64,000 nt of DNA, from the NCBI GenBank assembly GCA_000004985.1, contig GG738845.1; one strand, 5' to 3'. Source of the stretch: Naegleria gruberi. Taxonomy: Eukaryota. The notes beneath the pieces were generated by a model that saw nothing but the letters and a program-made list of their open reading frames with translations, did not search any database and was not told the origin of the DNA. Within the stretch, counting starts at the first letter, position 1, and each line of letters opens with the position of its first letter. Below, piece by piece: positions 22,265-62,147 of this stretch. The position numbers and the translations under genes were made by a program.

Positions 22265-23656
22265 ATGAAGTTGCTTCTTGCTTACTTAATTATTTTTCTA
22301 GCAGTTGTTAGTAGAGTTATTGCTTCATCAGGTTGTATTCTCAACAGAGATGGTAACTGTGGGATGACATCAAATGCCGCTGGGGAATTGCTTCTATCTG
22401 TTGATCCAAAACAACAATTTAACACTTTTATTAAATCATCATCTGTGGGAAATAATGGGGAAGTTATCTGCAGTACCCCTAATAGTTTCATTTCCAATCC
22501 GTTATGTAAGGAAAGATGGTTTAGAAAAGCACAACACGATAAACAATTTGCCTCCAATTCCCTAAAACTGAGATGTAATATTGATGTTGTTAGGGGCGAT
22601 TGTCAAATTGGAAATTTGCATTTTCCTCCAGAAAATCAATATAAGTTCTATCATAATGATAATCAAGAAACTCATATCTGTTCATCAATCCAAGGCTACT
22701 ATTCAAATCAACTTTGTAAAGAAAAATGGTTTAGAAAATTAACATTATCCCAGCACTCACTTCTTCCTACTAGTGAAACAAGCATTCCATCCTCAATTGT
22801 TTCTCATGAGGTCAATAACATTATTGCTATCAGTTCAACTTCTCAAACCCCATCTGATGTAATTGATTTAGCGGCTTCAACTACGAACAATGTTGAACTC
22901 ACCAATGAACCTCATTTTAATACTGATCTCACTCACGACTATGATATAGTTACAGAGTTGGCAGAGGCTTTTGAGAACAATGATGAAGATGATGAGTTTG
23001 ATGAATTGGAAATTGATGACTCAGACGAAACAGATGTTGATGAAGGAACTGAACTTGTTGAGGAATTACAAAGTGAGGATTCAAACGAAACAGATATTTC
23101 AGAGGAAGAGATTCAAGAAAATGCTAATGACAACACTGGAGATGATTTTAATAATGAAGAAGAAATTGACAACAAAGAAACTTATATTGAAGAGGAAGCA
23201 GAATCCGTATTTGAAATTGATGAAGAGGACAATGTTGTCCACAATGCTGCCGATAAGCCAATCCCTTCTAATGAAATTACTAATTCTTATACCAAGGAAA
23301 TTGAAAAAACACTAAAAGAAATAATTCCCTACATCAAGAACAAACCAAAAATTGTAAATTCTGTACCATATATTCAATCCGCTACAAACGTTTCTGGCTC
23401 AATTGGTAAGGTAAACATCAAAACAGTAATTAACACTGGAAATATTAAAAATAATAGACATCACCACAAAAGGATTTCCAAAAAAAACCAAAGAAAGCTG
23501 CCACGTGTGGGACGCGAGAGAAATGAAGTGAATCAAATTACTAAAGCTGTGAAAGAAATTGAAGAAAATTTGAAATCAAGAAAATATATTGAATCCAGAA
23601 AAGAAGAATTGAAGAGGAGATTTAAAGAATTCCTTCTTAATTCACTCAGAGTTTAA
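22265..23656 (+). CDS. Secreted protein with signal peptide, two Cys-containing repeats, a long acidic tract and a basic C-terminus
   Basis: N-terminus MKLLLAYLIIFLAVVSRVIASSG (signal peptide). Duplicated motif NPLCKERWFRKAQHDKQF / NQLCKEKWFRKLTLSQ. A D/E-rich segment (~aa 230-310), then a K/R/H-rich tail. Single exon. Confidence 0.55.
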   Translation: MKLLLAYLIIFLAVVSRVIASSGCILNRDGNCGMTSNAAGELLLSVDPKQQFNTFIKSSSVGNNGEVICSTPNSFISNPLCKERWFRKAQHDKQFASNSLKLRCNIDVVRGDCQIGNLHFPPENQYKFYHNDNQETHICSSIQGYYSNQLCKEKWFRKLTLSQHSLLPTSETSIPSSIVSHEVNNIIAISSTSQTPSDVIDLAASTTNNVELTNEPHFNTDLTHDYDIVTELAEAFENNDEDDEFDELEIDDSDETDVDEGTELVEELQSEDSNETDISEEEIQENANDNTGDDFNNEEEIDNKETYIEEEAESVFEIDEEDNVVHNAADKPIPSNEITNSYTKEIEKTLKEIIPYIKNKPKIVNSVPYIQSATNVSGSIGKVNIKTVINTGNIKNNRHHHKRISKKNQRKLPRVGRERNEVNQITKAVKEIEENLKSRKYIESRKEELKRRFKEFLLNSLRV

Positions 23657-40690: not shown

Positions 40691-43600
40691 TGAGCACAAC
40701 CGAAGCAAAGGTAATTATCAACAATTTTTATTTTAATATTTATTAGATCACACCAGGAAACCAAGGTACAACAAGCAAAAGGTACAGCCAAGAGAGACTT
40801 CTTGATTGATATTGAGAAGAAATATCAACAAGAATGGGAAGATAATCACATTTATGAATCTTCGGCCAGCGATTTGGAAAACAAGGAAAAATTCTTTGCT
40901 ACTTTCCCATATCCATACATGAACGGTAGACTCCACTTGGGTCACGCTTTCTCTATGACAAAAGCTGAATTCCAAACTCGTTTCCAAAGACTTTTGGGAA
41001 AGAATGTTTTGTTCCCATTCGGGTTCCACTGTACAGGTATGCCAATTGCTGCTTGTGCTGATAGATTGAAGAGAGAAATTGAAGATTTTGGAAATCCACC
41101 TAAATTCCCAGATGTTCAAGTTAAAAAAACAGATGATGACGAAAAAGTTGAGGATGAATCTGCTGAAGTTAAAACTGGTGAATATCAATGGAATATTATG
41201 AGAAAGAACGGATTGTCAGATGAAGATATTGCTAAATTTGCTGATGCCAAATATTGGTTGGAATATTTCCCACCACTTGCCAAGAAGGATCTTCAAAGGT
41301 TTGGAGTTGCTTGTGATTTCCGTCGTAGTTTTATCACAACAGATTTGAATCCGTATTATGATTCTTTCATTCGTTGGCAATTTAACCAATTGAAAGAACA
41401 AGGAAGAATTAGTTTTGGTAAACGTTACAGCATTTTCTCTCCAAAGGATAACCAACTTTGTGCAGACCACGATAGAGCTGTTGGTGAAGGTGCTAAGCCA
41501 CAAGAATATACAGTTGTAAAATTGTTCTTGCAAAAACCATACCCAAAGGTTTTGGAACACTTGCAAGATAAGAGAGTTTATTTGGGAGCTGCCACTTTGC
41601 GTCCAGAGACAATGTTTGGACAAACAAATTGTTGGCTTTTGCCTGATGGAGAATATGGCGCTTTTGAAACTAATAATGGTGAAGTTATAATTTGTACTGC
41701 AAGAGCTGCCAGAAATCTTGCTTGGCAAGAATTGAGTCCAAGACCTGGTGAAGTAGTTCAACTTGCCAAATTTTTGGGAGCTGATTTGATGGGAGCTGCT
41801 GTTGATGCACCAATGTCTCCACTCAAAACTATCCATGTTTTGCCAATGATGTCAATTTCTACAAGAAAAACAACTGGTGTTGTCACATCTGTGCCTAGTG
41901 ATGCACCTGCTGATTTTGCAGCTCTTCAAGATTTGAAGAACAAGGCTGATCTCAGAACAAAATTCAACATCAAAGAAGAATATCTTCATGATCCTATTCC
42001 AATTATTGAAGTTCCAGAGTATGGTACTTTGTGTGCTCCAGCTCTCTGTGAAAAATACAAGATTAAATCTCAAAACGATAAGGATGGTTTGGAAAAAGCT
42101 AAGGATGAAGCTTATCTTCTCGGATTTAGTAAGGGTGTATTTGTAATGGAAGGTGAATTCAAGGGAATGTCAGTTAAGGACACAAAGAACAGAATTCGTC
42201 AAAAATTACTAGATGAAGGAATGGCTGTTCCATATGCTGAACCAGACAAGGAAGTTATCAGTAGATCAGGTGACAGATGTGTTGTCAGTTTGACTGATCA
42301 ATGGTATTTGGCCTACGGTGAAGAAGAATGGAAGAATGTTGTAATGAATCATCTTAAGACTAAATTCCATGTCTATAACTCTGCCACTATCAATGAACTT
42401 GAATCAACAGTGGAATGGTTGAAAGAATGGGGATGTTCAAGATCATATGGTCTTGGTACTAAGCTCCCATGGGATGAACAATTCTTGATTGAATCATTGA
42501 GCGATTCTACAATTTACATGGCATACTATACTGTTGCTCATCTTTTGCAAGGTGGAGTTTTGGATGGATCTGGTCAAAGTCCAGCAGGTGTTAAACCAGA
42601 GCAATTGACTGACGATATTTGGAGTTACATCTTCCATGGTAAGCCTCTCACTTCAACCAATGGAATTAACCAAGAAGTATTGGATTCATTGAGAAAGGAA
42701 TTCCAATACTGGTATCCTGTTGATTTGCGTGTCAGTGGTAAGGATTTGATTAAGAACCATTTGACCATGTTCCTTTATAACCATGCTGCTATCTTCCCAG
42801 ATCAAATGCCAGGATCTATTTTTGCTAACGGTTATGTTATGGTAAACGGTGAAAAGATGAGTAAGCAAGCTGGTAACTTTTTGACTTTGCAAGGTGTTAT
42901 CGAAATGTATGGCGCTGATGCTACTAGACTTGCTCTTTGTGACAGTGGTGATACTCACGATGATGCTAACTTTGAGCAAAATAATGCCAACAGTGCTGTT
43001 CTCAAGCTCAATACCTTCTTGGAATGGATAGAAGAGACACTCACCAAGGGTGATATGAGAGATGAAGAAAGTGAATACCTCTTTGCTGACAAGATCTTTG
43101 ATGCCAAGATGAATTTGTATGTTACTGAATCAAAGAAACACTACGAGGCTATGGTTTATAAGGAAGTTTTCAAGACTGTTTGGGTTTCAATGCAAGATGC
43201 TCTTTCTAAGTATATTGAAACTATGAAGAGAGATTCTATCAAATTGCACAAGAAGCTTATTTTGAGATTTATTGAACTCCAAAGTATTATTCTTTCACCT
43301 GTACTTCCTCACTGTACTGAACATATTTGGAAGGAATATCTTAAGAAGGACGGATCAATTGTTAACACTAAATGGCCTGTAGTACCAGCTGCTGATGAAT
43401 CACTCTTGCTTAGTGATGAATATCTTAAAGATGCTCTCCACAAATTCCGTCAATCTTTCCAAAAGGAATCCAAGGCCAAGAAGAAGGCTCTTAAGGCTTA
43501 TATTTATGTTGCTGACAAGTATTTGGATTGGCAAATTAAGAGTTTGGAAATTCTTTCAAAGCACAAAGAATCTTTCCATGATAAGGAAAAGGAAGATGCC

Positions 43601-43891
43601 GCTATGAAGGTTATTTCTCAAGAGCTTAAGGAATTTATGAAGTTCAAGCCAATGCCTTTTGTAGCCCTCAAGAAGGAACAATACAAAAAGGATGGTGATT
43701 CGGCTTTGAGCACAGAGTTGCCATTTAATGAATTTGAACTTCTCAACTCAAATATTAACCTTATTAAGGCTTGCTTTGGAGATATTGAAGTTGAAATTTA
43801 TTCACTTTCTCAAACATATCCAGATCCTTTGAAGAGAGCTACCAGAGCTCAACCAATGGATCCTTCATTTGGTGTTGAATGGGAAAAATAA
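40691..43891 (+). CDS. LARS1: Cytoplasmic leucyl-tRNA synthetase (archaeal/eukaryal-type LeuRS), 2 exons
   Basis: ATG 40691 (MSTTEAK) plus a short intron, then the 1029-aa ORF. HIGH-class motif region PYPYMNGRLHLGHAFS, KMSKS motif as GEKMSKQAGN, CP1 editing and anticodon-binding regions, all in LeuRS order. Confidence 0.9.
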
Positions 43892-46591: not shown

Positions 46592-49500
46592 ATGAATCCA
46601 AATGAATTGTTACAGCTTCGACAAGCCCGACTTGAAGCTTTACGAGAAAACAAGAAGTTTAAGGATGAATGGGCAGAGAACAATGAAAAAATACATAAAA
46701 GAAATATGGACATTAAGAAGGAACGAGAAGCTATTGATATAAAAATTAAAACATCAATGTCTTTGAAAAAAAAAAGACAAGAGGAGGTAAGATGTCTTTA
46801 GATCCGATTATTAATTAATGTAGTTGAGAAAAAAAGTTTCAAGATCCGAAGTGTTTTCAGGCATTGAGGAGTTTGAAAAAAAGTTGGAGCATACCGAAAC
46901 CAATAAAGAACCACAACTGGAAAAAGCATCTGTGCCAGTCAATGCTAATACATCAGTCACCTCAATAGAAAAACTAGAAAAGGAAAGTTCGAACACAAGA
47001 GATGCCAACTCTTATCTTAAAAAGATAAAAGCTAAAAGAAGTGAAGAGCATGCAAGTAGAAAGGAGAAGGAGCAAAGAAGAAGAAAAGTTCTAATGGAAC
47101 AACAACAGGTGTTTAAAGACTTAGAAGAATCCAGAAGAAGAGAGGTACTACTGGAAAAATTAATGAAAAAATCTATGGAGGAAAGACAGTTAGCCAAAGA
47201 GTTAAACGAAATTAAACAATTAAAACAGGTGATGAAGGAAAATAGAGAAATAAGAGAAAAACAATATGCTGAAAGAAGAAGAAAAGATTTTGAAGAGAAG
47301 CAAAGAAGAGAAACTGACCTTATGGAAAAGGAAAAGGAGGAAAGAAAAATCAAAAAGAGGGAGTTAATTGAAAAGCACAAACTATTGTTGGAAGAGAAGT
47401 CGAAACAAAAAAGAGAAAAACATTGGAATATTTGCTTTGAGATTTCTAATCAGATCATTGATTTATCATTTAAAGAAATTGAATATGCTGAAACAACAGA
47501 AGGAGAAAAGCCAACAACAGCAGAGATTCTTGAATGGAGAAAAATGTTCGTAAAGGGTGTCTATGATGATGAATCCACAAAGGAAGATGATGCTGAGCTC
47601 GAACAGTCTAGAGAAATGGAACAAAGTCTTCAAACACATGAAACTGTTGATTTAGATGTGATTGATATGGCAGAATTTAAGGATTATTTATCATGTAAGG
47701 GAGTTTGGAAAGAATCTTCTGATGAAACAGAAAAGGTATCCAACTTTATCAAAGATGTAGTCTCAAAACTTCACGATAAGATTCATCCTCTACCTTCACC
47801 AAAGACTGAACCTGTTCTCAAGAGCAAATATTCATATAATGTAATTTTGACAGGAAAACCAATGAGCGGGAAATCAACTGTTTGCAAAAAAATAGCATCT
47901 CAACTTTCTCTCTTTCACATCAATACAGAGGCTATTTTAAAATCACTCCTGGATGGGGAGAACAAGTCATCAGAGTATTCAGAAATTGCTAATAGAGCTA
48001 GAGCCTGTTTGTTGGATGGTAGGGAAATAGATGAAGAAATAATAGTTGACTTGATATTATTGGAGATAGAAAAAGTTGAAAAAATAGAAAATACAACATA
48101 CCAAGGGTGGTTGATAGAAGGTTATCCATTGACTCTGGAGGCAGCAAAAATTTTAGAGAGAAGAATATCAGGATACACACCATCTGTGGAGGAATTTGTT
48201 GGGACAGATTCTGAAGTCAAGCTGAACTCTGTTATTCTAAATCAAAATAGTTGCAAGAAGTCTGATGAAGAGCTTATGAAGCGTTTAGTACCATTCCAGG
48301 CATTCACATCTGTAATATTTATTGATGTTGAAGATGAATTAGTTTTCGAACGATTGGCAGACCAAAAAGTGGATCCTCTTACTGGAACTGTTTACCACAT
48401 GATTTACTCACCACCTGAGAGTGTGGACATTTCTACAAGACTTGTACCAATTGATGAACATGTAAGATTGGACAAGGCTCAAATTAATTCCCAACTGGTT
48501 TCGTTTGCTAAATCAAAGCGTGAACTAATGAATTGGTATAAGAAATTTGAAAATGTGTTTGAAGCAAAAGAAAACAGTATTGATGATTTGGTAAAAGAAT
48601 GTTCCAATATTATTACTAATCACAAGAGAGAACCATTCCAAAACCACATTCAAACGGAACCAGAAAATTCAGAAATAGAGCAAAGTGGTGGACCTGAAAA
48701 AAAAGAACTCGATGTTGAATTTTGCAAGTTATTCTTGAGTGAGTGGATGTCAATAGAACAAAATTATGTGGGCAGCTGCAAATTGGTGTTTAGGAATTTG
48801 AGAGATTTTAGAAAGTCATTCTTTAAGCAATTTTCAGATCTCAAAGAGCAATTCATGAACTTTTTACTTAGACCAGACGACAAACAAGTGTATATCACTC
48901 AATTCCAGAATGACTTCAACAGATTACCATTAGAACTTAGGAGTAATTCTCAAGTGAAAGATGAGCTTCATAGAAGGTCTGAAGATCTCAAGGAAACTCT
49001 TTGGACTCTATGTGACGAGAAAAAGTTAGAGGCAGAAAAGGAATTAGAAGAGCACCAGAAAGAATCATGGTTAAAAACACACAAAAAAGCTGTCACACGC
49101 CAATACATGCAACTCATTCAATTGGAGCTTAACAGATTTATAGAACAGAGCAAGTTTTTATTTGATTATTTTGTTGAACAATACTTTTCTAACGATTTAA
49201 GCATTGGTGCAACAATTGATCTAAAGAAAACTTTATCTGCCCCAATTCTTTCTGTAAATATTGAGGAGTTATTTGTTGATGTCATCTCAGGGGCTTCAAA
49301 CACCAAATCAACAAACAAAAAGCCAACAAAACCTTCCACGAATTCCAGCACCAGATCAAAGATTGATCAACAAGACCAAGACCTTAACATTGAAGATTGC
49401 TTTGAAAGAGCAAAAACTACATGTGATACTCTAGATCTTTTAATTACACTGCAAAATTACATTGATAAAAACGGGAAAAAGAAAAAGGAGAAAACAAAGG

Positions 49501-50684
49501 ATCCCTATGTTGATATTCCTTTGGAAGTGAGAGAGTGTATGGGGAAAGAGAAGGAGATATTTTTGAGAAGGATTACGCTCATTAAGGAAAGATGTCTAAA
49601 TTCCCTTAAAGACCAACTTGAATCAAAATCTAATCATATTTTCGGCACCATGAGAGATTGGATAGGACAACGTTACAGAACCGATATGGCAAATATTGGT
49701 CTCCTTTCCAGAACCATACAAGATTTTATTGAAAAGGAAACTCCTATAGTTAACGAGATGAGAATAGAAGGTAACAAGTGTATAATAGATGAGAGTGTAC
49801 AGATGACTAACCCGTTACCATTGCACTCTACAAGTAGATCTCAATTGACTACGCAAGAAGCTCCGGAGACAGTGGTTTCCTTCACTAAATCATTCACACC
49901 ACATCAAGTATTTTCATTATACGAAAGGCTACAAGCACCAAGTCCTAGCGGATTTGTTGAGCTAGAAGAGATTACTACTACACTTTTAATTCTTATCGAT
50001 TCAACATTCGGATCAATGGAACTGCCAAACCAATGGTTAGACTATGACAATGACAAGGTTAGAGAAATTACAAAAAGGTTTGATCCATTCAAGAAGGGAT
50101 ATATTAATTGGAGAACATTTTTATTATCTGCTTTATTTACATTTTTCCATCGTCTTCCAACCATTGAGGATATTAGAAAACTCCTTTTAATAGTTCATCC
50201 GCTTGTGTCATCTGGAGAAACCAACTTAAAGCAAGAACAATTTACGGATCTTTTAATCAGATGGATTGGCGAAACAGGTATTTCAAGTAATGAGGAAGAG
50301 GTATCAAAAGTGTTGTTCAACCTTTTCAAACCATTTATTAATGCAACAGTCTCCAACACTGTAAATATTAGAAGCGTTCTCCTTTACCTTTGTTTAGATA
50401 ATCAATCAATTATTGGAACTCTCACAAAGGGATTTGAAGTATTGTCCTATCTGAATGGAACAGAAGGTTTGGATGATAGTGGTGTCTTTGAAATCATGAA
50501 TTTTAATATTGATGTTGAAGAGGACGTAGAAGATTCATTTTCACTTTCTCAAATAAGAGCAGTTTTTGCAGAACTGAAAAAGTCAAAGTCTAGTGTGTCC
50601 CTTGAAGAATTTTCATGTGCCTCCATTGGCAAGACAATGCTAAAAAAAAGTGTACATTTGAAATTGGGTTCTGTATTCTATTAG
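46592..50684 (+). CDS. Large (~1350 aa) coiled-coil protein containing an adenylate-kinase-like P-loop NMP-kinase domain, 2 or more exons
   Basis: Exon 1 46592-~46795, then the 1286-aa ORF. E/K/R-rich coiled coil at the N-terminus. VILTGKPMSGKSTVCKKIA (P-loop) ... GWLIEGYPLTLEAAKILE (the NMP-binding 'GFLxDGFPRT'-like motif), a dispersed adenylate-kinase fold. Long C-terminal region of unknown function. Confidence 0.6.
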
Positions 50685-50697
50685 AGAAATAAAACAT

Positions 50698-53421
50698 TTA
50701 CAATTTATTTTCGAGCAATTTCAATGCCATTTCTTCAGCTTCATCAAGACCAACAGTTTGCTTCTTCTTTTTTGGAACAATAGTTGGCAGATTGGATTGA
50801 GTAGCCATTAACTGGTCGAACTTTCTCTTCTTTTCGTCTGCTTTTTCTTTGACTTGCTTGTCATGTTCTGCCTTTTCTTTGAACCTTTGTGTTGTAGAAA
50901 CTTTTTGCTCTGGTTGTTCCATAGCATTCACAAAGTCTTCATAAGATTCATCAACATCCTCTTCATCAGGCAAGGCACTTGTACTGGTGTTGGGAGTGTT
51001 GGCTTTAACAACCCTTTGGTAGTCAAATGGATCTTCCTCCAAAAGATCAGCCTTTCTTCTAAGCTCTTCCAATTCTTTCTCTCTCTTCTTTGTAATTTCC
51101 TTCTGATTTTTTAATCTCTCCTTATCCTGTTCTTTATCTGTGGAAGCAGTCTTTTTCATTCTAGTTTTAATTTCATTTAGAAACTCAGAACGATCATTAG
51201 TCAAATTGGATAAGTTGGTATTCTTTAATTCGCTCAAAACAGACTCCAACTTGGATATTTTCCCACCTTCCTTGTTAAAAATAATGTGCTTTTTTCCATC
51301 AATCTTTTGCATGAATTTCTTCTTATTTACATAGAGTGGGACATTATCCTTTTCATCCAATTTGTGATTTTCTCTTTTCATATAAAAGAAATCATCATCT
51401 GCTGTAACCTCCTCTCCTATTACAATCTTGTCTAATTCTGCCTTCTTTTGCATGAATTTGTCAATTTTAGATAATTTCTTCTTTTTCTTTTCTTCTCCCT
51501 CTTCTGGTTCATTTTCCAAATCTTTTTCAGAATCTGAATCGTCTGAGTCATCGTCTGAATCGTCTGAATCGCTAGATACAGCGTTAGGATCGTACTCCAC
51601 CTGATATTGAATATCGTCATCTGCATCATCAACAGGAATACTGTCAATCATATTTTGAATTTTGACATCTTCCTCTTCGTCGCTTTCTTCATTTCTTGGA
51701 TTTTCTTCTCCTTCTGCGCTATCATAGTCAACCTCTGGTTGCTCCTCTTCATCTCCTTTTTGAATTTTACCATTCTCTGTGGTTACGTCTGATTCTGAAT
51801 CGCTTGAATCACTGGAGTCCATTTCATCCGAATCATCATCACTGCTTTGATCGTCCTCTGCATCATCCTCTGTCATATTAAGGCGTACTTCCTTCTTTAC
51901 TCTATCGCTTGGGTTCAGGATCAATACAGGTTTAATAGCAAGCCCCAGCTTGACAGCAAATGCATCCAAATTGAGTGCCTTAAAATCAATATCATAACCA
52001 TAATGTTTGTAAACATGTTTAAGATATGTTTGGAAATATTTAACAGCAGCTTGCTTTAAATTTGTATCGTGTGATAGAAGGGCAGCGAGTTGAGCTCTGA
52101 TAGTGACAATCTTTTCTGGATTAATTTTCATTTCCTTTAAACTTCCTGTTTCCAAACTATCCTTATCAAATAAAAATGTTAAGAGAGGCTTTTCTTGTGG
52201 AGTTACAACAACGACTGATTTTCCATCAGCATCATTTCTAGCAGTTCTTCCCATTCTATGAATGTAAAAAGCTTTGGAAACTGGTGCATCGAGTTGTAAA
52301 ACGAAATCTACGCGAGGAAAATCCAATCCACGAGCTGCTATATCTGTTGCAAAGAGAACTGCTGCTTTAGCTGATGTAAACCCTTCGAACATTTCTCTTC
52401 TAGAGCCTTGCGACATTCTTCCTGCCAATTTGAACATTTTAACTGATAGTGGTAAGTGTTTAAACACAGTATGTAAAAATGAGACTTGTTTCACAGTGGA
52501 CGAAAAAACAATAACCTTCTTATTTTGGTGAGACTTGAGGAAAGAGAATAAAATATCAATCTTATCTTCCAATTGACATTCAATATAGTGTTGAGTTAAT
52601 TGTTTTGGAACTGGTTCTGATTCGTGGACAGATATATATTCTGTATTTGTCTTACTTAATGAAAGTCGTGCAAGATCTTTGATATCTCTAGTTTGAGTAG
52701 CACTAAACAAAAGTGTTTGTCTGCTTTTTGGTAAGCCATCCAAAATTGAGTTCAATTCATTTCTGAAACCTAATTCAAGTAATCTATCAGCTTCATCCAA
52801 AACAAGAACTTGTAGGTTTGAACAAATAAATCCTGCTGTTTCATCCATATGTTGAAGTAATCTACCAGGTGTTGCAACAAGAATATTCATATTACAAATA
52901 TGTTCTTTTTCCTCTTTTAAATTCTTAGTACCACCAACAAGTAAACCTGCTGAAAAATGGTGGTATCTTCCACAAAGTTTTAAAACTTCGAATATTTGCT
53001 GTGCTAATTCTCTATTTGGTGATAAAATCAATGCACCAAGTCCATCAAGTTTTCCCCATCTTTTTCTATATAATAATTCTAATACTGGCAATACAAATGC
53101 TAAAGTTTTACCGGAGCCTGTTCTGGCAGCACCTAGAATATCCCTTCCTCCTAGTGCATGTAGTATTGATGCCTTTTGAATGTCCTTCATAGTGACAAAG
53201 CCAGCTTTTTTAAGTGCATCTTTAGAATATTGAGAGATTGGTAATTCTAAAAATTTACTAAATTGTGATGGCAATGCTACAGAAGATTTGGTTGATGTTT
53301 TAGCAAGAGGGTTAATTCCTTTTGGTGGTGTTAATTCAATAACTTTTTGTTTAAGTATTTCCACTTCCTCGTTCTCCTTCTTTAACTTTTCAACAGGAGT
53401 TAACCGCGTAGATCTTGGCAT
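50698..53421 (-). CDS. DBP4: DEAD-box RNA helicase DDX10/Dbp4 (ribosome biogenesis)
   Basis: 907-aa single ORF. GFVTMKDIQKASILHALGGRDILGAARTGSGKTLAF, VLDEADRLLELGF, SAT, HRMGRTAR. A long C-terminal extension with acidic tracts (DSDDDSDDSDSEKD...) is characteristic of Dbp4/DDX10. Confidence 0.85.
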   Translation of the reverse strand: MPRSTRLTPVEKLKKENEEVEILKQKVIELTPPKGINPLAKTSTKSSVALPSQFSKFLELPISQYSKDALKKAGFVTMKDIQKASILHALGGRDILGAARTGSGKTLAFVLPVLELLYRKRWGKLDGLGALILSPNRELAQQIFEVLKLCGRYHHFSAGLLVGGTKNLKEEKEHICNMNILVATPGRLLQHMDETAGFICSNLQVLVLDEADRLLELGFRNELNSILDGLPKSRQTLLFSATQTRDIKDLARLSLSKTNTEYISVHESEPVPKQLTQHYIECQLEDKIDILFSFLKSHQNKKVIVFSSTVKQVSFLHTVFKHLPLSVKMFKLAGRMSQGSRREMFEGFTSAKAAVLFATDIAARGLDFPRVDFVLQLDAPVSKAFYIHRMGRTARNDADGKSVVVVTPQEKPLLTFLFDKDSLETGSLKEMKINPEKIVTIRAQLAALLSHDTNLKQAAVKYFQTYLKHVYKHYGYDIDFKALNLDAFAVKLGLAIKPVLILNPSDRVKKEVRLNMTEDDAEDDQSSDDDSDEMDSSDSSDSESDVTTENGKIQKGDEEEQPEVDYDSAEGEENPRNEESDEEEDVKIQNMIDSIPVDDADDDIQYQVEYDPNAVSSDSDDSDDDSDDSDSEKDLENEPEEGEEKKKKKLSKIDKFMQKKAELDKIVIGEEVTADDDFFYMKRENHKLDEKDNVPLYVNKKKFMQKIDGKKHIIFNKEGGKISKLESVLSELKNTNLSNLTNDRSEFLNEIKTRMKKTASTDKEQDKERLKNQKEITKKREKELEELRRKADLLEEDPFDYQRVVKANTPNTSTSALPDEEDVDESYEDFVNAMEQPEQKVSTTQRFKEKAEHDKQVKEKADEKKRKFDQLMATQSNLPTIVPKKKKQTVGLDEAEEMALKLLENKL

Positions 53422-55134: not shown

Positions 55135-55693
55135 TTACATCTTTAATTCTTCTTGGAATTTTTGCAAGGTTTCCTCAGGAGTAAGTTCCTTCTTTTCATT
55201 CTTTTCAAAAAGAAACTCTGGCGCCTTTTCTTTATCTAAAAGTGTAATAGTTGCCATGGTTGCATTGTCACCCTTTCTGTTCTTCCACAATCTTTCAATT
55301 GATGTATAACCTCCTTGTCGTTCCTTGAATCTCTCTGGGAATGTTTGGATAGCTTTTTGGATAGCTTCTTCTTCATATAAATACGATTTAATTTGATTGT
55401 GGGCATGCTCGCTATTTCTCTTAGAAAGTGTAACCATCTTGTCGATGAAGGTTCTCAATTGCTTTGCTTTCACTATCGTTGTTGTTATTTTATCGTGTTT
55501 AATCAAGTTTGTGGTCAAACTTCTCATAAGAGCTTTATATCCAATCCATAACAAATTAATAAATGTAAAACATCCAATCCGTATCATGTTCAAAATTAAC
55601 ACGTTCCAATTTAATATCCACTACGAAATTTCGTTTACACATACCTTCTCTTTGGGCGGCGTCTCTTGAAAAATGTTTAAAGAAATGTCCTCT
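55135..55693 (-). CDS. Mitochondrial ribosomal protein bL17m (L17 family), 2 exons
   Basis: Exon 1 (~55641-55693): MRGHFFKHFSRDAAQRE plus GTATGT intron. Exon 2: ...LMRSLTTNLIKHDKITTTIVKAKQLRTFIDKMVTLSKR..., which matches the bL17 consensus (...L.RNL..SL..HERI.TT..KAKELR...). Confidence 0.75.
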
Positions 55694-55875: not shown

Positions 55876-58800
55876 ATGATCAACCGACATCATTATGCTT
55901 TCATAGGTGATTCCAGAAAGAATGGAAGTGAGTACAATCCAATACAAATGTTATTTTAATATAGATCTTTAGAACCTTATGAGCCAAAGAAAGGATCAGA
56001 CATAAACTTACCACCATTAGGGGTTAGAAAAGAGAAGGAAAGTGCAATTCTTGAAGCAGATGAATCTTCTCGGAATGATGTTTTTAAATTCAATAGAGAT
56101 GATGTATTTAATTTTGATATTAAGGATATGAGAATATCAAGCACCAGGGAGGTACGTCAAAACCCAAATCTGCTCCAGGCCAATGCTCCCCCACCAAAGA
56201 GAACTAAAGTCACGTTCAAAGGTATGTGAGGAATTGATACTTTAGTACTTAAATACAACCAGATGCGGACGAATCAATGCAAGAGAGTGCTATTGCTGAA
56301 GGAATTTCTGTTGAGGATTGGATGAAGGAAAATGAAAATATTTATGATGTTAAATTTAGGAAGGATGAAAAAACAAAACAACAGGGAAGAAGGTCTCTCA
56401 CCAGACCAGAGTCACAATCATCGTTGGATTCTAGTACATTAAAGGAAGGAAACACTAAACTACCTTATTTGAAGGATGTATTCATGAAGGAACGGGCTCC
56501 ATCAAAGCAATTAGTTCATTATTTGGATATTATTGGAGGAGAAAAACAAGTGAATACAAAAAAAATACTTAAAGTGGCTCCAGATGACGAGGAAGAAATA
56601 GCAAAGTTAAAAACTGGTGATGATGCTGTTGCCTTTTTCTCGAAAGCAGGAAAAAGTAGTAGGTATTATTTAAACTATTTGGATAACTTTGATTTTTTAA
56701 AGCTGCTGTCAAGTTTGTATATTTAAATAGAGCAGATTCAAATGGAGTTGATTACCGACCATATGATCTAGTTGTAGTTTCTAAAAGTGACACTAACCCA
56801 GAATATTTTACCATGTCTTCGACAGGTGTTGTACATATTTGCCCAGGTCAACCTACTGAGTACATGTCCCTCTCTGAATGGATGAAAGAATCAACAATGT
56901 TTAACGTTCTAAGAAGAATTAGATTTTTCAAGTACTATCTTGTTCATAAGTGCTTTAGACTCTGGTATCAAAGTAAGTTGACAACCTTAGTCATTCAATT
57001 ATCTAACGTATTTATCCAGATGCAAGATATCTTAAATATAGTAAGAAGAGAATGGATTTGGCAAGAAATTTCTTCCTTGCCAAGAAAACTTTCTCTTCTT
57101 CTGTCATGAAGATTCACAAACTTTCACACGACTTGCAATATACTCCAATTATGGACTTGAGAGATAAAGAAAATTCAAATGAGCCATCAGTAACTATTGA
57201 ACAGTTCCATGAGGCTCAAAAAGAATTGAGATCAAAATCATCTAAAACCTTTGACGAAATTATTGAGAAAATGGAGGAAATTTTGGTACAACTTTGTGAG
57301 GATGTTACTTCTAGGTCAAGAGTTCCAGATATGAATGCTTCTGAAAATATTGAAGCCTATCTCAGTGGTAAAATACCTACTCTTGAAGCTGAGGATGATT
57401 TCACAGCTAAAAAATCCAAATCTATGGTTGAGGCCCAAGAGGAAGAAGAAAAGAGACAGAGAGCCCTTAAAAAAGCAAGAGAAGAGGCGGATATGCTTGG
57501 TAATTTCATTAGAGTTTCCGACTATATGGCTGTAGAATCTTTGGTAACTTTATCAAAGAAGATTCTCGACAAATTCAAGGTTACTCTCCAAGAAACCAAG
57601 TCAATACTTTTCCTTGTAAACTTACTTTTCAAATCCGATGGTTCTGACATTGTTTTTGAACCATCTGAGGGTGCAATAATGCATGTTCTTCAATCCAACT
57701 CTGATGAAATTGTAACAACTGTCAGTCAAGTTCCAAGACTTTTATACATGCGTAAATTCAAAGTTTATTTTGATAATCTGGATAAATTCAAGATGGAAGA
57801 ACATTTAAGACAACTTCATGTTGGAAAAGTATTGCAGAGAGATGAGGTATTTAACTCAATCAAGTCTCAAATAGAAATGATGTTACACAATGATTTCTTG
57901 AAGGCGTTAGAATATGGAAAGGATTTCGAAGGATTGAAACATTGGTTCAAGTTTGGAAAAGAATGGGATGATAAGTATGCAGAAAAGAGACACACTGTCC
58001 AAGAATTTACTGAAAAAATTAAGCATGTCAATGATGCTCTCCTTGAGTTGAAGAGAATGAACTTTGTGCAAGAAAAAGGAATTCTTTTTATTGACAGCAA
58101 ACAGTTAAGAAATACTTTGCAACCAATTATGGAGAGTATTTACGAGCAAATTAAACTTTCTATAAGTGTTACATCCCGAGAAATGTGTCTAGAACTTAAT
58201 AAGAAGTTCATTGAGAGAGTAAGAATCATGAAGGAAGAGCCAACCAAGCTGAAGGACTTTGCCAAGTTCATAGATAACCACAATAAGATCAGAAAGGAAA
58301 CTCGTCAACTCATGATAGCGGCTGATGAAGTTGAAAAGATGAATGAACTTGCTGCAAAGAACAAGGTTGAAATGGACAGAGCAGACCAAGTTGCTTTGGA
58401 ATCATTGAAAGAAATTAAGGATGAGTTTTTGCAAGTATTCAAAAAGGCAGAACTCTACAAGGAGAATAATATGGCTTCAAAGAAAAGCGAGTTGGAAGAA
58501 AATGTTCAAAAGGTTAGTGATGACCTTTTGGACATGATGACAGTGCTCAGAAATCCTCCATTCATTACAGCTGATGCTGACCCAGTTGATGTTTTGGAAA
58601 GACTTTCTAGACTTGGTGAGGAGATTGCCCAATTTAAAGAAAAAACAGAAATCTACAAAGAGTACCAAATTCTACTTGAGGCACCAGTTAAGGAATGGAC
58701 CAATTTAACAGGCGCTGAAACTCAATTCAATGTTAGAAGTCAAATTTGGAAGGCTATAGATGAATTTTCAAAGAAGTCTGACCTTTGGGATACCACTGAC

Positions 58801-59712
58801 ATCCAAAAACAAGATATTAGTGACATTGAGCAAGAGGTTGAAAAATATTATCAACTTGGAATTGAAATGGCCAAATTTGGAGAGGATGATGTTGTAAAGT
58901 TGTTGAAGAAAACTGTGCAGGTTTGGAAAGATAATTTACCAATAATTTTAATGATTGGTAATAAGGACTTGAAGCCTCATCACTGGGAACAAATATTCAA
59001 AGGTATGAATAAGGAATCTGCCAAAGGAGCTTCCTATACACTTAGACAATTGGGTACTCTTGGTATTTTTATGTACAAAGATTTGATAACAGACGTTTCA
59101 AAAGCAGCAACAGGAGAAGCTCAATTATTTAAAAGCTTGGAAGTTATCGCTCAAACCTGGAGAGAAACTGATTTTGATTTCAAAGCTCTTCCACATAGAA
59201 AAGATTTTTACATATTGAATCAAACTGATAATATTCAAATGCTCTTGGATACTCATAAGAGAACCCTCAGAGAAATGTTGGATTCAAAATATGTTTCTGT
59301 AATTAGAACTAGAGTTGAGGATTGGATAAAAAAGTTGGAAAATGTAACTGTAATATTCCAAGAGTGGCTTTCTTGCCAGAGAAGACTTTTATCTTTGGAA
59401 TACATTCTCACATCTGATCTCATCAAGAAAGAGAATCCAGAAGATGTTGCCAAATACATTTCTGTCAGTTCAGAATTCAAAGATTTAATAAGCAAAACAA
59501 GTCTTAATAGAAATGTGCTGGTAGCTACTCATGAGGAAGGAATTTTAGAAACATTTGGTCGTTGGAATATGGCTTTTGATGAAATTGAGAGGAACGTAAA
59601 AACCTCAGAGGAGGGAGCTGCTGCTCTTGCTGAAGAAAGCGAGGACGACCAAGATGTTTCCTCTGAATCTGATTTGGATGAGCATGCCTACGATGAAGAG
59701 GATGAGTATTAA
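55876..59712 (+). CDS. Dynein heavy chain N-terminal (tail + start of linker) protein lacking the AAA+ motor. A truncated DHC-like gene, at least 5 exons.
   Basis: Exon ~56727-56970: ...YRPYDLVVVSKSDTNPEYFTMSSTGVVHICPGQPTEYMSLSEWMKESTMFNVLRRIRFFKYYLVHKCFRLWYQS (DHC_N1-type motif). Within the 886-aa terminal ORF: ...ILMIGNKDLKPHHWEQIFKGMN... and ...VIFQEWLSCQRRLLSLEYILTSDLIKKENPEDVAKYISVSSEFKDLI.... These match the conserved start of the dynein linker (DHC_N2: NPxLRxRHWxQ...; EEWLxxQxxWLYLEPIFSSEDIxxQ). The ORF terminates at 59712 in an acidic tail (SEDDQDVSSESDLDEHAYDEEDEY), not in AAA1. Confidence 0.6.
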
Positions 59713-59732
59713 AAAATTCAAACAAAAACTAT

Positions 59733-62147
59733 TTATTGTGTTTCGTCCATCTTTTTGTTTTGTTCTGGTTCTTGTTTTTGTTCAGTTGGCTTTTCTTCCT
59801 TCTTTGGTTCTTCTTTTGGTTTTGGCTTTGTGACAATTGGAGTGGCAACCTTTCTTAAATCCTTCTTACGATTTTCAATGAAAGCACATGTTAAAATTGG
59901 GTCAGAAGACTTGGCAACCTTATCTTGTTGAGCAAGTTGTTCATTCAACCAAGTATTTGTTTCGGATACCTTATCAGCAACTTTTTGTTTTTCTTCATTG
60001 GTAATATGGTTGTATTGTTCAGTATTGGCATTATCTACAAAGGTTTGGAATTCCTTGATTGTTTCTTGTAATTGTTTAATGCCTTCTGGTCTAGCTTCGA
60101 ATTCCTTCAACCTATTTTCAACTCTATCACCAACCTTCTTGAGTTCAGCAAGTTTTTCTTGATAGACAGTCTTTGTTGTGTTTTCACCATCACCATATAA
60201 CCATGATTCAGTATCATCCAATGTGAGGATAAAGTTATCTCTATCTTGATCATTAATAAATTCATAGAGATCACCACCTTCATAAAGTCTTTCCTTCATA
60301 TTATAACAGAAACTTTCAACGTTATTCTTTGCTTCAGCAGTAGTACGAACGTCCTTGTCACGATTTCTCATTGATTGTTCAACATTCAAGTATTGATTGA
60401 AAAGCTCTGTAGTGATACCTGGAACTGTGGTGAGGACCTTCAAGTTGTGTTTAATAGTCTTCTTCTTCTTGACAAGTCTTGTTTTTGGTTTTTCATCCTT
60501 CTTTTCTTCAGCAGGCTTTTCTTGAGATACTTCTTCAGTTGTATCCATCTTGTTTTGTTCCAATTCTTCTTTTGGAATTGGTTCTTCTTCTTCAACTTCA
60601 ATTTCTTCAGAGGCAGTAGCTTCTTGAACTTCAACTAAACCCAACATGTTGTGTCTCATCTTGATCTTAATCTTCAATGGTTCATTTCTTTGTGGAATGT
60701 CAGTAATTGTGAATTTACCCATAATACTACTAGTACCAGCTGGAAGAAGGGAAGGATCAGAGTAGACTGTAAACAAATCAAATGTCTTAGACTTGTTAAA
60801 AGTAAGCATCTTGGATGAAGGAGTACCTTCAAATTGTTTGAAAAGTGTTGATTGTTTCAATGAAGAGAGAACAGATGCTTCATCATCATCGACCATTTTG
60901 TCATCACTTTCTGGATTGGCAACCCATCCCAAATTGACACCATGATAAATTGAATCAATAACATTAAATTCACGAGCAAGAGTAAACTTTGGACTAATCA
61001 TGGCAGCTTGAATAGCAGCTCCCTTAGCAACACTTTCAGTTGTGTTTAAAGTGGATTGTACTTCCTTTCCGATAATCTTTGCCAATGTTTCTCTAATAAC
61101 TGGAATATATGAAGCACCACCCAACAATTCAACAGTTGTCAATTGTTCAGCTGTAATACCAGCTGATTCCAAAGCTCTTTTAACTGGAGCTTCAAATCTA
61201 GATAAGACTGGTTGAACCAATTGAATGTATTCGTCTCTCTTAATTTGGAATTGAATATCCTTTTCATTCATCAAACATTCAATTCTCAAATTAGAAACTG
61301 GATTAGAACTCAAGAATTTCTTCAATTTTTCACATTCTCTTGCCAAACGAATAACTGCCTTAGGATTTGTAGTAACATCCATCTTGTATTTGGTCTTGAT
61401 TTCTTCAACGTAGTGGTCATACAAAGCCTTTTCAAGTGCATAAGCTCCCAAGTTTGGATCACTAGCACAAGATAAGACACGAAGTTGTGACTTTTTGAAT
61501 TCAATAATGTAGACGGAAGTATCAAGGTGACCAACATCAACAAAGGCAATGTTTTGAGCTTCCTCAGGGAAATCCTTATAGATGCCATAACCCAAAGCAG
61601 CAGCAGTGACATCGTGCATAACACGAATAACATTCAAACCAGCAATTTCAGCTGCTTTGACCACATCACGTCTTTGAATTTCATTAAAGTAGCAAGGTAC
61701 GGTAATAACACAATCGGATTCACGGAATCCAACAGAGCTTTCAACATCATCTACAATTTTACCAAACAGCATACCTAATAACTGAACTGGGCTAAGAAGT
61801 TTGGATTCAGCATCGTTATCATGGAGCTTATAACCATCAATCTTGAATAGAATTTCATCATTTGGGCCTTGGAAAATTGGAACAGAAATATTAGCATGGA
61901 GAACTTCTGGTGTAAGTTGACTATATTTTAATCCAATGAATCGTTTAATAAGTGAAATGGTTCTTTGATAGTGACTGATTTGTGCACCCATACCACTTTC
62001 TCCAATCAATCTTTCATTTTCCGAGAAGGAAACATAGACTGGTGTATATCTTCGGGAGAATTCATTGGTAACAATATCAATAGAACCTTTCTTTGCAATA
62101 CCAACTACACAATTTTGAGAACCCAAATCAATTCCGAGAACTGGCAT
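59733..62147 (-). CDS. SSE1: Hsp110/Sse1-type Hsp70-family nucleotide-exchange chaperone
   Basis: 804-aa single ORF. MPVLGIDLGSQNCVVGIAKKGSIDIVTNEFSRRYTPVYVSFSENERLIGESG... (Hsp70 NBD with Hsp110-specific features). An extended acidic insertion and long C-terminal helical domain are typical of Hsp110 rather than canonical Hsp70. Confidence 0.9.
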   Translation of the reverse strand: MPVLGIDLGSQNCVVGIAKKGSIDIVTNEFSRRYTPVYVSFSENERLIGESGMGAQISHYQRTISLIKRFIGLKYSQLTPEVLHANISVPIFQGPNDEILFKIDGYKLHDNDAESKLLSPVQLLGMLFGKIVDDVESSVGFRESDCVITVPCYFNEIQRRDVVKAAEIAGLNVIRVMHDVTAAALGYGIYKDFPEEAQNIAFVDVGHLDTSVYIIEFKKSQLRVLSCASDPNLGAYALEKALYDHYVEEIKTKYKMDVTTNPKAVIRLARECEKLKKFLSSNPVSNLRIECLMNEKDIQFQIKRDEYIQLVQPVLSRFEAPVKRALESAGITAEQLTTVELLGGASYIPVIRETLAKIIGKEVQSTLNTTESVAKGAAIQAAMISPKFTLAREFNVIDSIYHGVNLGWVANPESDDKMVDDDEASVLSSLKQSTLFKQFEGTPSSKMLTFNKSKTFDLFTVYSDPSLLPAGTSSIMGKFTITDIPQRNEPLKIKIKMRHNMLGLVEVQEATASEEIEVEEEEPIPKEELEQNKMDTTEEVSQEKPAEEKKDEKPKTRLVKKKKTIKHNLKVLTTVPGITTELFNQYLNVEQSMRNRDKDVRTTAEAKNNVESFCYNMKERLYEGGDLYEFINDQDRDNFILTLDDTESWLYGDGENTTKTVYQEKLAELKKVGDRVENRLKEFEARPEGIKQLQETIKEFQTFVDNANTEQYNHITNEEKQKVADKVSETNTWLNEQLAQQDKVAKSSDPILTCAFIENRKKDLRKVATPIVTKPKPKEEPKKEEKPTEQKQEPEQNKKMDETQ

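What the first reader, a model, noticed from the sequence alone, without database searches (positions are those of the whole stretch)
55876..59733. Dynein heavy-chain gene reduced to its N-terminal tail and linker start, with no motor domain
Translated exons carry motifs I recognise from DHC_N1 (...EYFTMSSTGVVHICPGQPTEYMSLSEWMKESTMFNVLRRIRFFKYYLVHKCFRLW) and from the start of the linker, DHC_N2 (...IGNKDLKPHHWEQI... and ...QEWLSCQRRLLSLEYILTSDLIKKENPEDVAKYISVSSEF...). The 'SSEDI/TSDLI' flavour looks closer to axonemal than cytoplasmic dynein. All known dynein heavy chains are >3000 aa with six AAA+ modules. Here the reading frame ends at 59712 in an acidic tail after only ~1100 aa, and the Hsp110 gene begins 20 bp later on the other strand, so the truncation is not a window-edge artefact. 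The homocitrate synthase and tandem-HMG genes suggest a non-flagellated early-diverging fungus. If so, this would be a retained or neofunctionalised remnant of an axonemal dynein. If the organism is flagellated, it is still an unusual stand-alone dynein tail protein.
Basis: partly seen in the sequence, partly recalled or inferred. Interest (0 to 1): 0.7.

Follow-up and report, generated by a model that had tools for sequence, protein, structure and literature searches.

The report
Headless inner-arm dynein heavy chain
A gene of the amoeboflagellate Naegleria gruberi encodes only the anchoring tail and the first half of the lever arm of a flagellar inner-arm dynein, with no motor; similar motor-less copies are kept under selection in related protists, so a dynein tail probably has a job of its own.

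Summary
Window 55876-59712 (+) holds a 5-exon gene for a 1219-aa protein. It matches, end to end, the first ~1130 residues of 4100-aa single-headed inner-arm dynein heavy chains of the DNAH6 type. It stops in the middle of the linker (Pfam DHC_N2 positions 4-301 of 403), then adds a disordered acidic tail. There is no AAA+ motor in the gene, the window or the orthologues' flanks.

The organism is Naegleria gruberi, a flagellate-forming protist, not a fungus. Pfam DHC_N1 does not match.

The truncation is not an artefact. Three Naegleria species end at the same residue with different downstream neighbours, and non-synonymous change is low while synonymous sites are saturated. Tail-only genes ending at DHC_N2 297-305 also occur in Acrasis kona, in a transcriptome and in an unnamed assembly. 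Acrasis also carries a full-length gene of the same subfamily.

In tail-only proteins the tail keeps 45 of 46 conserved positions. The last ~70 linker residues lose about a third of theirs, differently in each lineage.

Best reading (0.6): a motor-less dynein tail protein that still docks but cannot generate force. Main rival (0.2): the N-terminal half of a split gene. I could not search the rest of the Naegleria genome.

The parts
55876..55927 (+). Exon 1 (putative start ATG at 55876; 17 codons plus 1 base)
   Evidence: Only in-frame ATG upstream of exon 2. A GT donor follows it. Not verified by RNA data.
55973..56221 (+). Exon 2 (poorly conserved N-terminal region)
   Evidence: GT-AG borders and the reading frame are conserved with N. 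fowleri P0001.
56263..56658 (+). Exon 3
   Evidence: The corrected donor at 56659 restores 'KSTAVKFVYLNRAD', which is present in N. fowleri and in other dyneins.
56703..56972 (+). Exon 4 (contains EYFTMSSTGVVH...FRLWYQ)
57020..59712 (+). Exon 5, ending with stop codon TAA at 59710-59712
   Evidence: The 886-aa ORF 57052-59712 lies within it. The splice acceptor is at 57019.
56583..57066 (+). Most conserved module of the tail (aa 208-338). This is the N-terminal module shared by DNAH6-type single-headed inner-arm heavy chains. It spans introns 3 and 4.
   Evidence: Identity is 58-70% to other heterolobosean copies, both tail-only and full-length, and 44-49% to Trypanosoma vivax and a dinoflagellate. 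There is no Pfam DHC_N1 hit.
57067..58713 (+). Helical tail (aa 339-887)
   Evidence: Aligns collinearly with the tails of PDB inner-arm heavy chains. The AF2 model is mostly helical with pLDDT 83.5. Identity between N. gruberi and N. fowleri is 95-96%.
58714..59598 (+). N-terminal part of the dynein linker (aa 888-1182), equal to Pfam DHC_N2 positions 4-301 of 403. The last ~70 residues (aa 1112-1182) are degenerate.
   Evidence: Pfam E = 5.5e-57. Only 25 of 37 otherwise conserved columns are retained, and the losses cluster in aa 1112-1182. This part diverges 3-4 times faster than the tail within Naegleria.
59605..59709 (+). Acidic C-terminal extension (aa 1185-1219) with no dynein homology
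   Evidence: pLDDT is below 50. Composition is conserved across three Naegleria species but sequence is not (pN 0.38-0.48).
59713..59732 (.). 20-nt spacer between the convergent stop codons of the dynein-tail gene and Hsp110
59733..62147 (-). Context: Hsp110/Hsp70-family gene, identical to N. gruberi XP_002683458.1
   Evidence: It is not the downstream neighbour in N. fowleri or in the third Naegleria species.
55135..55602 (-). Context: mitochondrial-type ribosomal protein L17 gene, divergent from the dynein-tail gene. It is the syntenic upstream neighbour in all three Naegleria loci.
   Evidence: Pfam Ribosomal_L17 E = 9e-29. The same neighbour is seen in L002 and L003.

Best explanation
The gene encodes a stand-alone, motor-less ('headless') derivative of a DNAH6-type single-headed inner-arm dynein heavy chain.

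Shown:
- The protein consists of the complete tail, the first ~55% of the linker, and a disordered acidic end.
- It is intact and under strong purifying selection in several Naegleria species.
- Equivalent tail-only genes exist in other Heterolobosea.
- In Acrasis kona such a gene coexists with a full-length gene of the same subfamily.
- The tail keeps essentially all positions that motor-bearing relatives conserve. The linker segment next to the break has lost them.

Inferred:
- The protein still folds and docks like a dynein tail. That would be on the doublet microtubule at an inner-arm site, with the usual tail partners, or in the cytoplasmic pre-assembly and transport machinery.
- It cannot bind ATP or microtubules and cannot produce a power stroke.
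- It therefore acts as a structural occupant, spacer or competitor for the site or partners of the corresponding motor. Which of these applies is not known.
For: (1) Architecture. DHC_N2 matches only positions 4-301 of 403, and there are no AAA, stalk or C-terminal domains. The protein is collinear with residues ~128-1129 of 4100-aa inner-arm heavy chains. The best Foldseek matches are Chlamydomonas 8glv_Mm and T. brucei 9e5c_6c from 96-nm repeat structures.

(2) No motor sequence lies in the 64-kb window or within 10 kb of the orthologues in N. fowleri, a third Naegleria species or Acrasis.

(3) Selection. Among three Naegleria species pS is 0.75 or higher (saturated). pN is 0.04-0.07 in the tail and 0.08-0.17 in the linker remnant.

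(4) Tail-only genes end at DHC_N2 positions 297, 301, 302 and 305 in Acrasis P0004, N. gruberi, Logan protein P0140 and transcriptome ORF P0005. P0005 is flagged as a complete ORF.

(5) Acrasis kona has both forms in one assembly. P0004 is tail-only. An uninterrupted ORF of at least 3527 aa carries complete DHC_N2, AAA_6, AAA_7, AAA_8, MT and AAA_9. There, the tail-only gene is not needed to complete a motor.

(6) Shift of constraint. In a closely related full-length pair, the tail is 83-88% identical and the linker half is 90-91%. In Naegleria tail-only pairs, the tail is 95-97% and the linker remnant is 82-85%.

(7) Of 46 tail columns at least 85% conserved in 16 motor-bearing relatives, N. 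gruberi keeps 45. Of 37 such linker columns, motor-bearing proteins keep 34-37. Every tail-only protein keeps only 24-25. The losses sit in aa 1112-1182 (motif W.YLE.IF..DI..QLP) and the substitutions differ in each lineage.

(8) The break lies near the middle of the linker. The published hinge, a cleft between subdomains 2 and 3 spanned by one helix, is there too (PMC3469822, PMC3704981). A two-piece lever cut at that point looks mechanically implausible; this last step is inference.
Against: I could not search the rest of any Naegleria genome. It is therefore unknown whether Naegleria has a full-length gene of this subfamily, a motor-only gene, or neither.

The Naegleria protein is more similar to the Acrasis full-length gene than to the Acrasis tail-only gene in every region. 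My approximate ML analysis groups the two with RELL support 0.75. The Naegleria gene could therefore be the orthologue of the full-length gene's 5' part, which is what a split gene would look like.

The first two thirds of the linker remnant are still well conserved.

There are no expression, localisation or proteomic data for the Naegleria gene. A docking role is inferred from conservation only.
Confidence: 0.6

Rival explanations
1. Split gene. The locus encodes the N-terminal polypeptide of a two-piece inner-arm dynein. The rest of the linker and the AAA+ ring are encoded elsewhere in the Naegleria genome. The two polypeptides are translated separately and assemble non-covalently, as reported for Giardia DHC4 and basidiomycete DHC1.
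For: Independently translated dynein fragments have precedent (Kollmar 2016, PMC5100056). That paper also reports a single DHC7-class motor in Heterolobosea.

The Naegleria protein is closest to the tail of the Acrasis full-length gene, with RELL 0.75 for that pairing.

The whole linker remnant is under strong purifying selection within Naegleria. I detected no second tail of this subfamily from Naegleria. That search could not have seen long or cluster-hidden proteins.
Against: The ~70 residues next to the break would form the interface and lever of a reassembled motor. They have lost a third of the positions that are nearly invariant in motor-bearing dyneins.

The linker remnant evolves 3-4 times faster than the tail, the reverse of the full-length pair.

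The C-terminal extension is disordered and not conserved in sequence.

In Acrasis the same architecture coexists with a full-length gene.

The cut is at the linker's thinnest point (PMC3704981).
Confidence: 0.2
2. Trans-spliced gene. The mRNA from this locus is joined to a motor-encoding RNA from another locus, as for Giardia DHC3, and the acidic tail is not translated.
For: In N. gruberi the codon at the end of the homology is GTA, which could serve as a splice donor. Giardia provides a precedent (PMC5100056).
Against: The GT is not conserved: N. fowleri and the third Naegleria species have ATC there. An open frame with an acidic extension and a stop is kept in all three species. In the transcriptome ORF P0005 the stop follows directly. 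The degenerate linker end also argues against a functional continuation.
Confidence: 0.03
3. Neofunctionalised tail with a non-axonemal (cytoplasmic) role, for example as a scaffold unrelated to flagella.
For: A tail-only gene is retained in Acrasis kona, for which I know of no flagellate stage (from memory). Its genome paper does not mention flagella.
Against: Acrasis also keeps an intact ORF of at least 3527 aa for an axonemal inner-arm dynein, so its flagellar gene set is not obviously lost. The tail keeps 45 of 46 positions conserved in axonemal relatives, which suggests unchanged partners.
Confidence: 0.12
4. Decaying pseudogene fragment or assembly artefact.
For: The gene appears to be missing from the N. 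gruberi reference annotation: no N. gruberi NCBI protein was among the hits.
Against: The 3.6-kb frame is intact in three Naegleria species. pN is 0.04-0.17 with saturated pS. The end is the same in independent assemblies with different neighbours.
Confidence: 0.02

Closest known systems
DNAH6-type single-headed inner-arm dynein heavy chains: human/bovine DNAH6, Chlamydomonas chain 8glv_Mm, T. brucei chain 9e5c_6c, Leishmania chain 9y6s_7C. This is Kollmar's class DHC7. I recall this as the 'dynein g' position, from memory and not tested.
   Same: The tail and the first ~300 linker residues are collinear and clearly homologous, with E values from 1e-58 to 3e-114. They are also the best structural matches. 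The protein keeps 45 of 46 conserved tail positions.
   Different: It lacks the second half of the linker, all six AAA+ modules, the stalk and microtubule-binding domain, and the C-terminal domain. It is 1219 aa instead of ~4100. The segment before the break is degenerate.
Split dynein heavy-chain genes: Giardia DHC4 and DHC3, Spironucleus, Ustilago and other basidiomycete DHC1 (Kollmar 2016, PMC5100056; Straube 2001 and Roy 2012 as cited there)
   Same: A separate gene encodes an N-terminal dynein fragment that ends with its own stop codon. The fragment is conserved across species.
   Different: No complementary motor gene has been found. The cut is inside the linker rather than before the motor or inside an AAA module. 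The sequence next to the cut has lost conservation. In Acrasis a full-length gene of the same subfamily is also present.
Tail-only homologues in other Heterolobosea: Acrasis kona KAL0478288.1 (P0004), N. fowleri XP_044557886.1, transcriptome ORF GECH01002594 (P0005; I believe Pharyngomonas kirbyi, from memory), and Logan contig SRR22388222_4990179 (P0140)
   Same: The architecture is the same, with the end at DHC_N2 positions 297-305, and the same pattern of a conserved tail and a degenerate linker end.
   Different: The C-terminal extensions are unrelated. My trees do not recover these proteins as one clade. None has been studied experimentally as far as my literature searches show.
Engineered motor-less fragments of Chlamydomonas I1 inner-arm heavy chains that still assemble into axonemes (recalled from the literature of about 1999-2000; not checked here)
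   Same: They show in principle that a dynein tail without its head can dock at its axonemal site.
   Different: Those are laboratory truncations of two-headed I1 dynein. This is a natural, conserved gene of a single-headed class.

Membership tests
Dynein heavy chain (complete motor protein) | N-terminal tail homologous to dynein heavy-chain tails | tested here: met
   phmmer against PDB aligns aa 198-1176 to residues 128-1129 of inner-arm heavy chains, E = 3e-114. Supported by Foldseek.
Dynein heavy chain (complete motor protein) | Complete linker (Pfam DHC_N2 plus the remainder up to AAA1) | tested here: not met
   DHC_N2 matches only positions 4-301 of 403. Homology ends at '..DEIERNV', before the canonical 'YLETKR..FPRFYFLS'.
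Dynein heavy chain (complete motor protein) | Six AAA+ modules with the AAA1 ATP site | tested here: not met
   No AAA_6, AAA_7, AAA_8 or AAA_9 hits in the protein. No dynein motor domain in the ten largest other ORFs of the window. tblastn with post-break dynein sequence is negative on the window and the orthologous loci.
Dynein heavy chain (complete motor protein) | Coiled-coil stalk with a microtubule-binding domain | tested here: not met
   No Pfam MT hit. The protein ends 37 residues after the linker break.
   No DHC_N1 hit at E up to 1 for the whole protein or its exons.
DNAH6-type (class DHC7) single-headed inner-arm dyneins | Best and full-length tail similarity to members of this class rather than to outer-arm, I1, IFT or cytoplasmic dyneins | tested here: met
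   The top PDB hits cover the whole tail: 9e5c_6c, 8glv_Mm, 9y6s_7C and DNAH6. Other classes match only the linker part, with E of 1e-24 or weaker. Class membership is formally defined by motor-domain phylogeny (PMC5100056), which cannot be applied here.
Split dynein genes (Giardia / basidiomycete type) | A separate gene for an N-terminal fragment with its own stop, conserved across species | tested here: met
Split dynein genes (Giardia / basidiomycete type) | A complementary gene encoding exactly the missing remainder | not testable with these tools
   No Naegleria genome is searchable here. Protein searches returned no target longer than about 1.7 times the query. The metagenome scan found no Naegleria-like motor.
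Split dynein genes (Giardia / basidiomycete type) | No intact full-length copy of the same gene in the same genome | tested here: inconclusive
   Not met in Acrasis kona, which has both a full-length and a tail-only gene. Unknown for Naegleria.
Split dynein genes (Giardia / basidiomycete type) | Motor-grade conservation retained on both sides of the split | tested here: not met
   Only 25 of 37 conserved linker columns are kept, against 34-37 in motor-bearing proteins. The losses lie next to the break. The linker remnant evolves faster than the tail.
Pseudogene / decaying remnant | Frame disruptions or dN/dS near 1 | tested here: not met
   The ORF is intact in three Naegleria species. pN is 0.04-0.17 while pS is at least 0.75.

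The most novel reading that the evidence does not exclude
Heterolobosean flagellates keep a dedicated 'headless dynein': a heavy-chain tail cut at the linker hinge. It occupies an inner-arm docking site, or that site's partners, without producing force. This form either arose more than once at the same structural boundary, or has been repeatedly re-templated by gene conversion from the full-length gene. My ML comparison disfavours a single tail-only clade by 31 lnL units (RELL 0.017). The Naegleria copy groups with the Acrasis full-length gene.
Probability: 0.3. Interest if true: 0.8.

Novelty: new variant of a known kind. Interest (0 to 1): 0.6.

Why it matters
Dynein heavy chains are treated as indivisible motors of about 4000 residues. 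The known exceptions are split genes whose pieces together rebuild the whole motor.

A naturally occurring, selectively maintained heavy chain that keeps only the tail and the distal linker would show that the tail has an independent cellular function. That function could be structural occupancy of a site in the 96-nm repeat, regulation of motor number, or a role in assembly and transport.

It would give cilia biologists a natural counterpart to engineered headless dyneins. It would mark the mid-linker hinge as a tolerated domain boundary. It would also caution against counting dynein motors from tail or DHC_N2 hits in genome surveys.

If it instead proves to be a split gene, it would be the first split of an inner-arm dynein and the first split inside the linker.

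Tried and rejected
- Looked for the motor half in the window. Pfam on the ten largest other ORFs and tblastn with three post-break dynein segments against the window and loci L001-L003 found nothing.
- Looked next to the orthologues. The neighbours in N. fowleri, a third Naegleria species, Acrasis and contig L006 are unrelated genes.
- Tried to retrieve a Naegleria motor with the search for homologous proteins, using a ciliate-like post-break query and then the Acrasis full-length ORF. Only the best 120 hits are listed, and no target was longer than ~1.7 times the query. Long Naegleria proteins were therefore invisible, and no heterolobosean hit appeared.
- Tried to walk along the N. gruberi scaffold from Hsp110. 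The protein is not on record in the contig index.
- Ran the metagenome scan with the Acrasis break-spanning segment. It found an Acrasis-like contig at 88% identity and distant dyneins, but no Naegleria.
- Considered a trans-splice donor at the break. Rejected because the GT is not conserved.
- Considered the Hsp110 gene nested in a dynein intron. Rejected because there is no dynein-like coding sequence downstream and the neighbours differ in other Naegleria species.
- Searched for residues shared by all tail-only proteins and absent from full-length ones. Found essentially none. NJ trees were poorly resolved.
- A first ML run timed out.
- Literature searches for a described Naegleria split or motor-less dynein found nothing.
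- Could not confirm that TSA prefix GECH01 is Pharyngomonas kirbyi. Roy et al. 2012 is not held.

Full report
**What is there**

The + strand between 55876 and 59712 carries a gene of five exons: 55876-55927, 55973-56221, 56263-56658, 56703-56972 and 57020-59712. It has four short GT-AG introns of 45, 41, 44 and 47 nt. I moved the third intron after comparison with the N. fowleri orthologue, which restores the conserved 'TAVKFVYLNR'. The product is 1219 aa and ends at TAA 59710-59712. The first exon and its ATG are plausible but unverified.

The Hsp110 gene (59733-62147, minus strand; Pfam HSP70 E = 3e-116) converges on this gene. The two stop codons are 20 nt apart, so Hsp110 ends there rather than begins.

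**What the protein is**

- Pfam finds DHC_N2 (E = 5.5e-57), but only profile positions 4-301 of 403. It finds no AAA module and no DHC_N1.
- Against all PDB chains, aa ~198-1176 align collinearly with residues ~128-1129 of 4100-4200-aa single-headed inner-arm heavy chains:
  - T. brucei 9e5c_6c, E = 3e-114
  - Chlamydomonas 8glv_Mm, E = 3e-111
  - Leishmania 9y6s_7C
  - DNAH6
- Other dynein classes match only the linker part.
- An AlphaFold model of the last exon's ORF has mean pLDDT 83.5. It is helical up to a final long helix, and the last 30 residues are disordered. Its best Foldseek matches are the same inner-arm chains.
- Homology stops at '...FDEIERNV', immediately before the canonical 'YLETKR..FPRFYFLS'. 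About 295 linker residues are present and about 230 are missing.
- The break is therefore near the middle of the linker. Cryo-EM and crystallography place the hinge there: a cleft between subdomains 2 and 3 bridged by a single helix (PMC3469822; PMC3704981). I did not map the break onto the hinge residue by residue.

**Which organism**

The Hsp110 ORF is identical to Naegleria gruberi XP_002683458.1. The window also contains a CPC1/SPEF2 central-pair gene. This is an amoeboflagellate, not a fungus. No N. gruberi reference protein for the dynein-tail gene turned up, so the gene seems to be unannotated in that species. In N. fowleri it is 'uncharacterized protein FDP41_008380'.

**Is the truncation real?**

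Yes.

- N. fowleri (1185 aa, 86% identical) and a third Naegleria species from an ENA metagenome end at the same residue.
- All three share the upstream mitochondrial L17 neighbour but have different downstream genes.
- Among the three species, synonymous sites are saturated (pS at least 0.75). pN is 0.04-0.07 in the tail, 0.08-0.17 in the linker remnant and 0.38-0.48 in the acidic extension.
- The GT at the break in N. gruberi (codon GTA) is ATC in the other two species. There is thus no conserved splice donor, which argues against trans-splicing.
- No post-break dynein sequence occurs in the window or in the flanks of the orthologues.

**Relatives**

Tail-only genes with the same end occur in:
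- Acrasis kona (P0004, 1248 aa, single exon, unrelated neighbours)
- a transcriptome ORF flagged complete (P0005, prefix GECH01; I believe Pharyngomonas kirbyi, unverified)
- a Logan contig (P0140), where the next gene starts 20 nt later

Their DHC_N2 matches end at profile positions 297, 305 and 302. N. gruberi ends at 301.

The exhaustive representative search also brought up two further proteins:
- P0139, a 4123-aa full-length dynein encoded as a single ORF on a Logan contig.
- P0142, a 381-aa 'partial' Acrasis kona protein that is 65% identical to the Naegleria tail.

Reading the Acrasis contig shows that this 'partial' gene is an uninterrupted ORF of at least 3527 aa running to the contig end. 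It has a complete DHC_N2 plus AAA_6, AAA_7, AAA_8, MT and AAA_9. Acrasis therefore has both a full-length and a tail-only gene of this subfamily in one assembly, and both loci are 40% GC.

**Pattern of constraint**

This is the most informative result.

- A closely related full-length pair (the Acrasis ORF against contig L008, found) is 83-88% identical in the tail and 90-91% in the linker half.
- In Naegleria tail-only pairs the tail is 95-97% identical (N. gruberi against N. fowleri). The linker remnant is 82-85%.
- The ratio of linker divergence to tail divergence thus shifts about five-fold.
- Of 46 tail columns at least 85% conserved in 16 motor-bearing relatives, N. gruberi keeps 45.
- Of 37 such linker columns, motor-bearing proteins keep 34-37, but each tail-only protein keeps only 24-25.
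- All losses lie in aa 1112-1182, the otherwise near-invariant 'W.YLE.IF..DI..QLP.E..F' segment just before the break. The substitutions differ in each lineage.

The tail, and the part of the linker adjoining it, behave like those of a working dynein. The part that would join the proximal linker behaves as if its partner were gone.

**Evolutionary history (unresolved)**

- All heterolobosean copies, tail-only and full-length, form one clade (84% NJ bootstrap).
- The Naegleria protein is closer to the Acrasis full-length gene than to the Acrasis tail-only gene in every region.
- I wrote a likelihood comparison using a BLOSUM62-derived exchange model with four gamma categories. It is approximate. 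The best tree places Naegleria with the Acrasis full-length gene (RELL 0.75).
- Monophyly of the tail-only proteins is worse by 31.4 lnL (SE 16.7, RELL 0.017).
- The signal is mosaic. aa 339-608 favour Naegleria plus the Acrasis full-length gene. aa 1039-1184 favour tail-only monophyly.
- This fits three scenarios: repeated truncation at the same boundary, one old truncation followed by gene conversion of the tail, or rate artefacts. The identical break argues for common origin or for a strongly preferred boundary.

**Interpretation**

I favour (0.6) a motor-less, stand-alone dynein tail protein. It would still dock through its conserved tail but could not hydrolyse ATP, bind microtubules or stroke. 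It would act as a structural occupant of, or competitor for, the corresponding inner-arm site or its partners. The docking step is inferred.

The main rival (0.2) is the N-terminal half of a split gene. Precedents are Giardia DHC4 and basidiomycete DHC1 (PMC5100056). The closeness of the Naegleria copy to the Acrasis full-length gene speaks for it. The degenerate sequence at the break, the reversed constraint pattern and the coexistence seen in Acrasis speak against it.

Trans-splicing (0.03), a non-axonemal role (0.12) and a pseudogene or artefact (0.02) are less likely.

**Limits**

- I could not search any Naegleria genome beyond this window.
- Protein searches returned no target longer than about 1.7 times the query.
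- The contig index does not hold the N. gruberi scaffold.
- The metagenome scan found no Naegleria-like motor.
- Kollmar (2016) states that Heterolobosea have single-copy single-headed inner-arm dyneins and does not list Naegleria among split genes. The supplements were not available.
- My literature searches found no description of a natural motor-less axonemal heavy chain or of this gene family.

Noticed in passing
L005 9962-20543 (Acrasis kona JAOPGA020000769.1, contig end): The protein annotated as 'hypothetical protein AKO1_012332, partial' (381 aa) is the start of an uninterrupted ORF of at least 3527 aa. It encodes an axonemal inner-arm dynein with DHC_N2, AAA_6, AAA_7, AAA_8, MT and AAA_9. 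It is largely unannotated. I know of no flagellate stage for this organism, and its genome paper never mentions flagella or dynein.
   Followed up: partly
window 55876-59712: The gene seems to be missing from the N. gruberi reference annotation. The only 100%-identical database entry is an unnamed 886-aa ORF from an ENA contig, whereas the neighbouring Hsp110 is present as XP_002683458.1.
   Followed up: partly
window 46824-50681 (+): Large ORF with SPEF2_D5, adenylate kinase and SPEF2_C domains. This is a CPC1/SPEF2 central-pair protein, a marker of motile 9+2 flagella, only 5 kb upstream of the dynein-tail gene.
   Followed up: no
window 18814-22170 (+); 13126-17316 (-); 40802-43888 (+); 50701-53421 (-); 2196-3770 (+): Other large ORFs: the C-terminal part of a kinesin motor plus a long tail, a Nup160/Nup120-like nucleoporin, leucyl-tRNA synthetase, a DEAD-box helicase, and a syndetin C-terminal domain protein. 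Three further ORFs of 460-870 aa (35170-37788 -, 9191-11584 +, 22265-23653 +) have no Pfam hit.
   Followed up: no
L004 10001-22372 (Logan SRR23962323 contig, 28% GC): A 4123-aa full-length dynein of the same subfamily encoded as one intron-less ORF. Its tail is 41% identical to the Naegleria tail-only protein. The organism is unknown. It branches inside the heterolobosean clade in my trees.
   Followed up: partly
window 59713-59732 and L003 5340-5346, L006 2859-2879: Intergenic spacers after the tail-only genes are extremely short: 20 nt to a convergent stop in N. gruberi, and 6 nt and 20 nt to the next gene in two other contigs. The 3' UTRs and poly(A) sites must overlap the neighbouring genes.
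   Followed up: no
tool behaviour: In all three homologous-protein searches no listed target exceeded about 1.72 times the query length (2077 for a 1211-aa query, 1246 for 714, 1506 for 874). Full-length dyneins never appeared. Negative results for long proteins from that tool should not be read as absence.
   Followed up: partly
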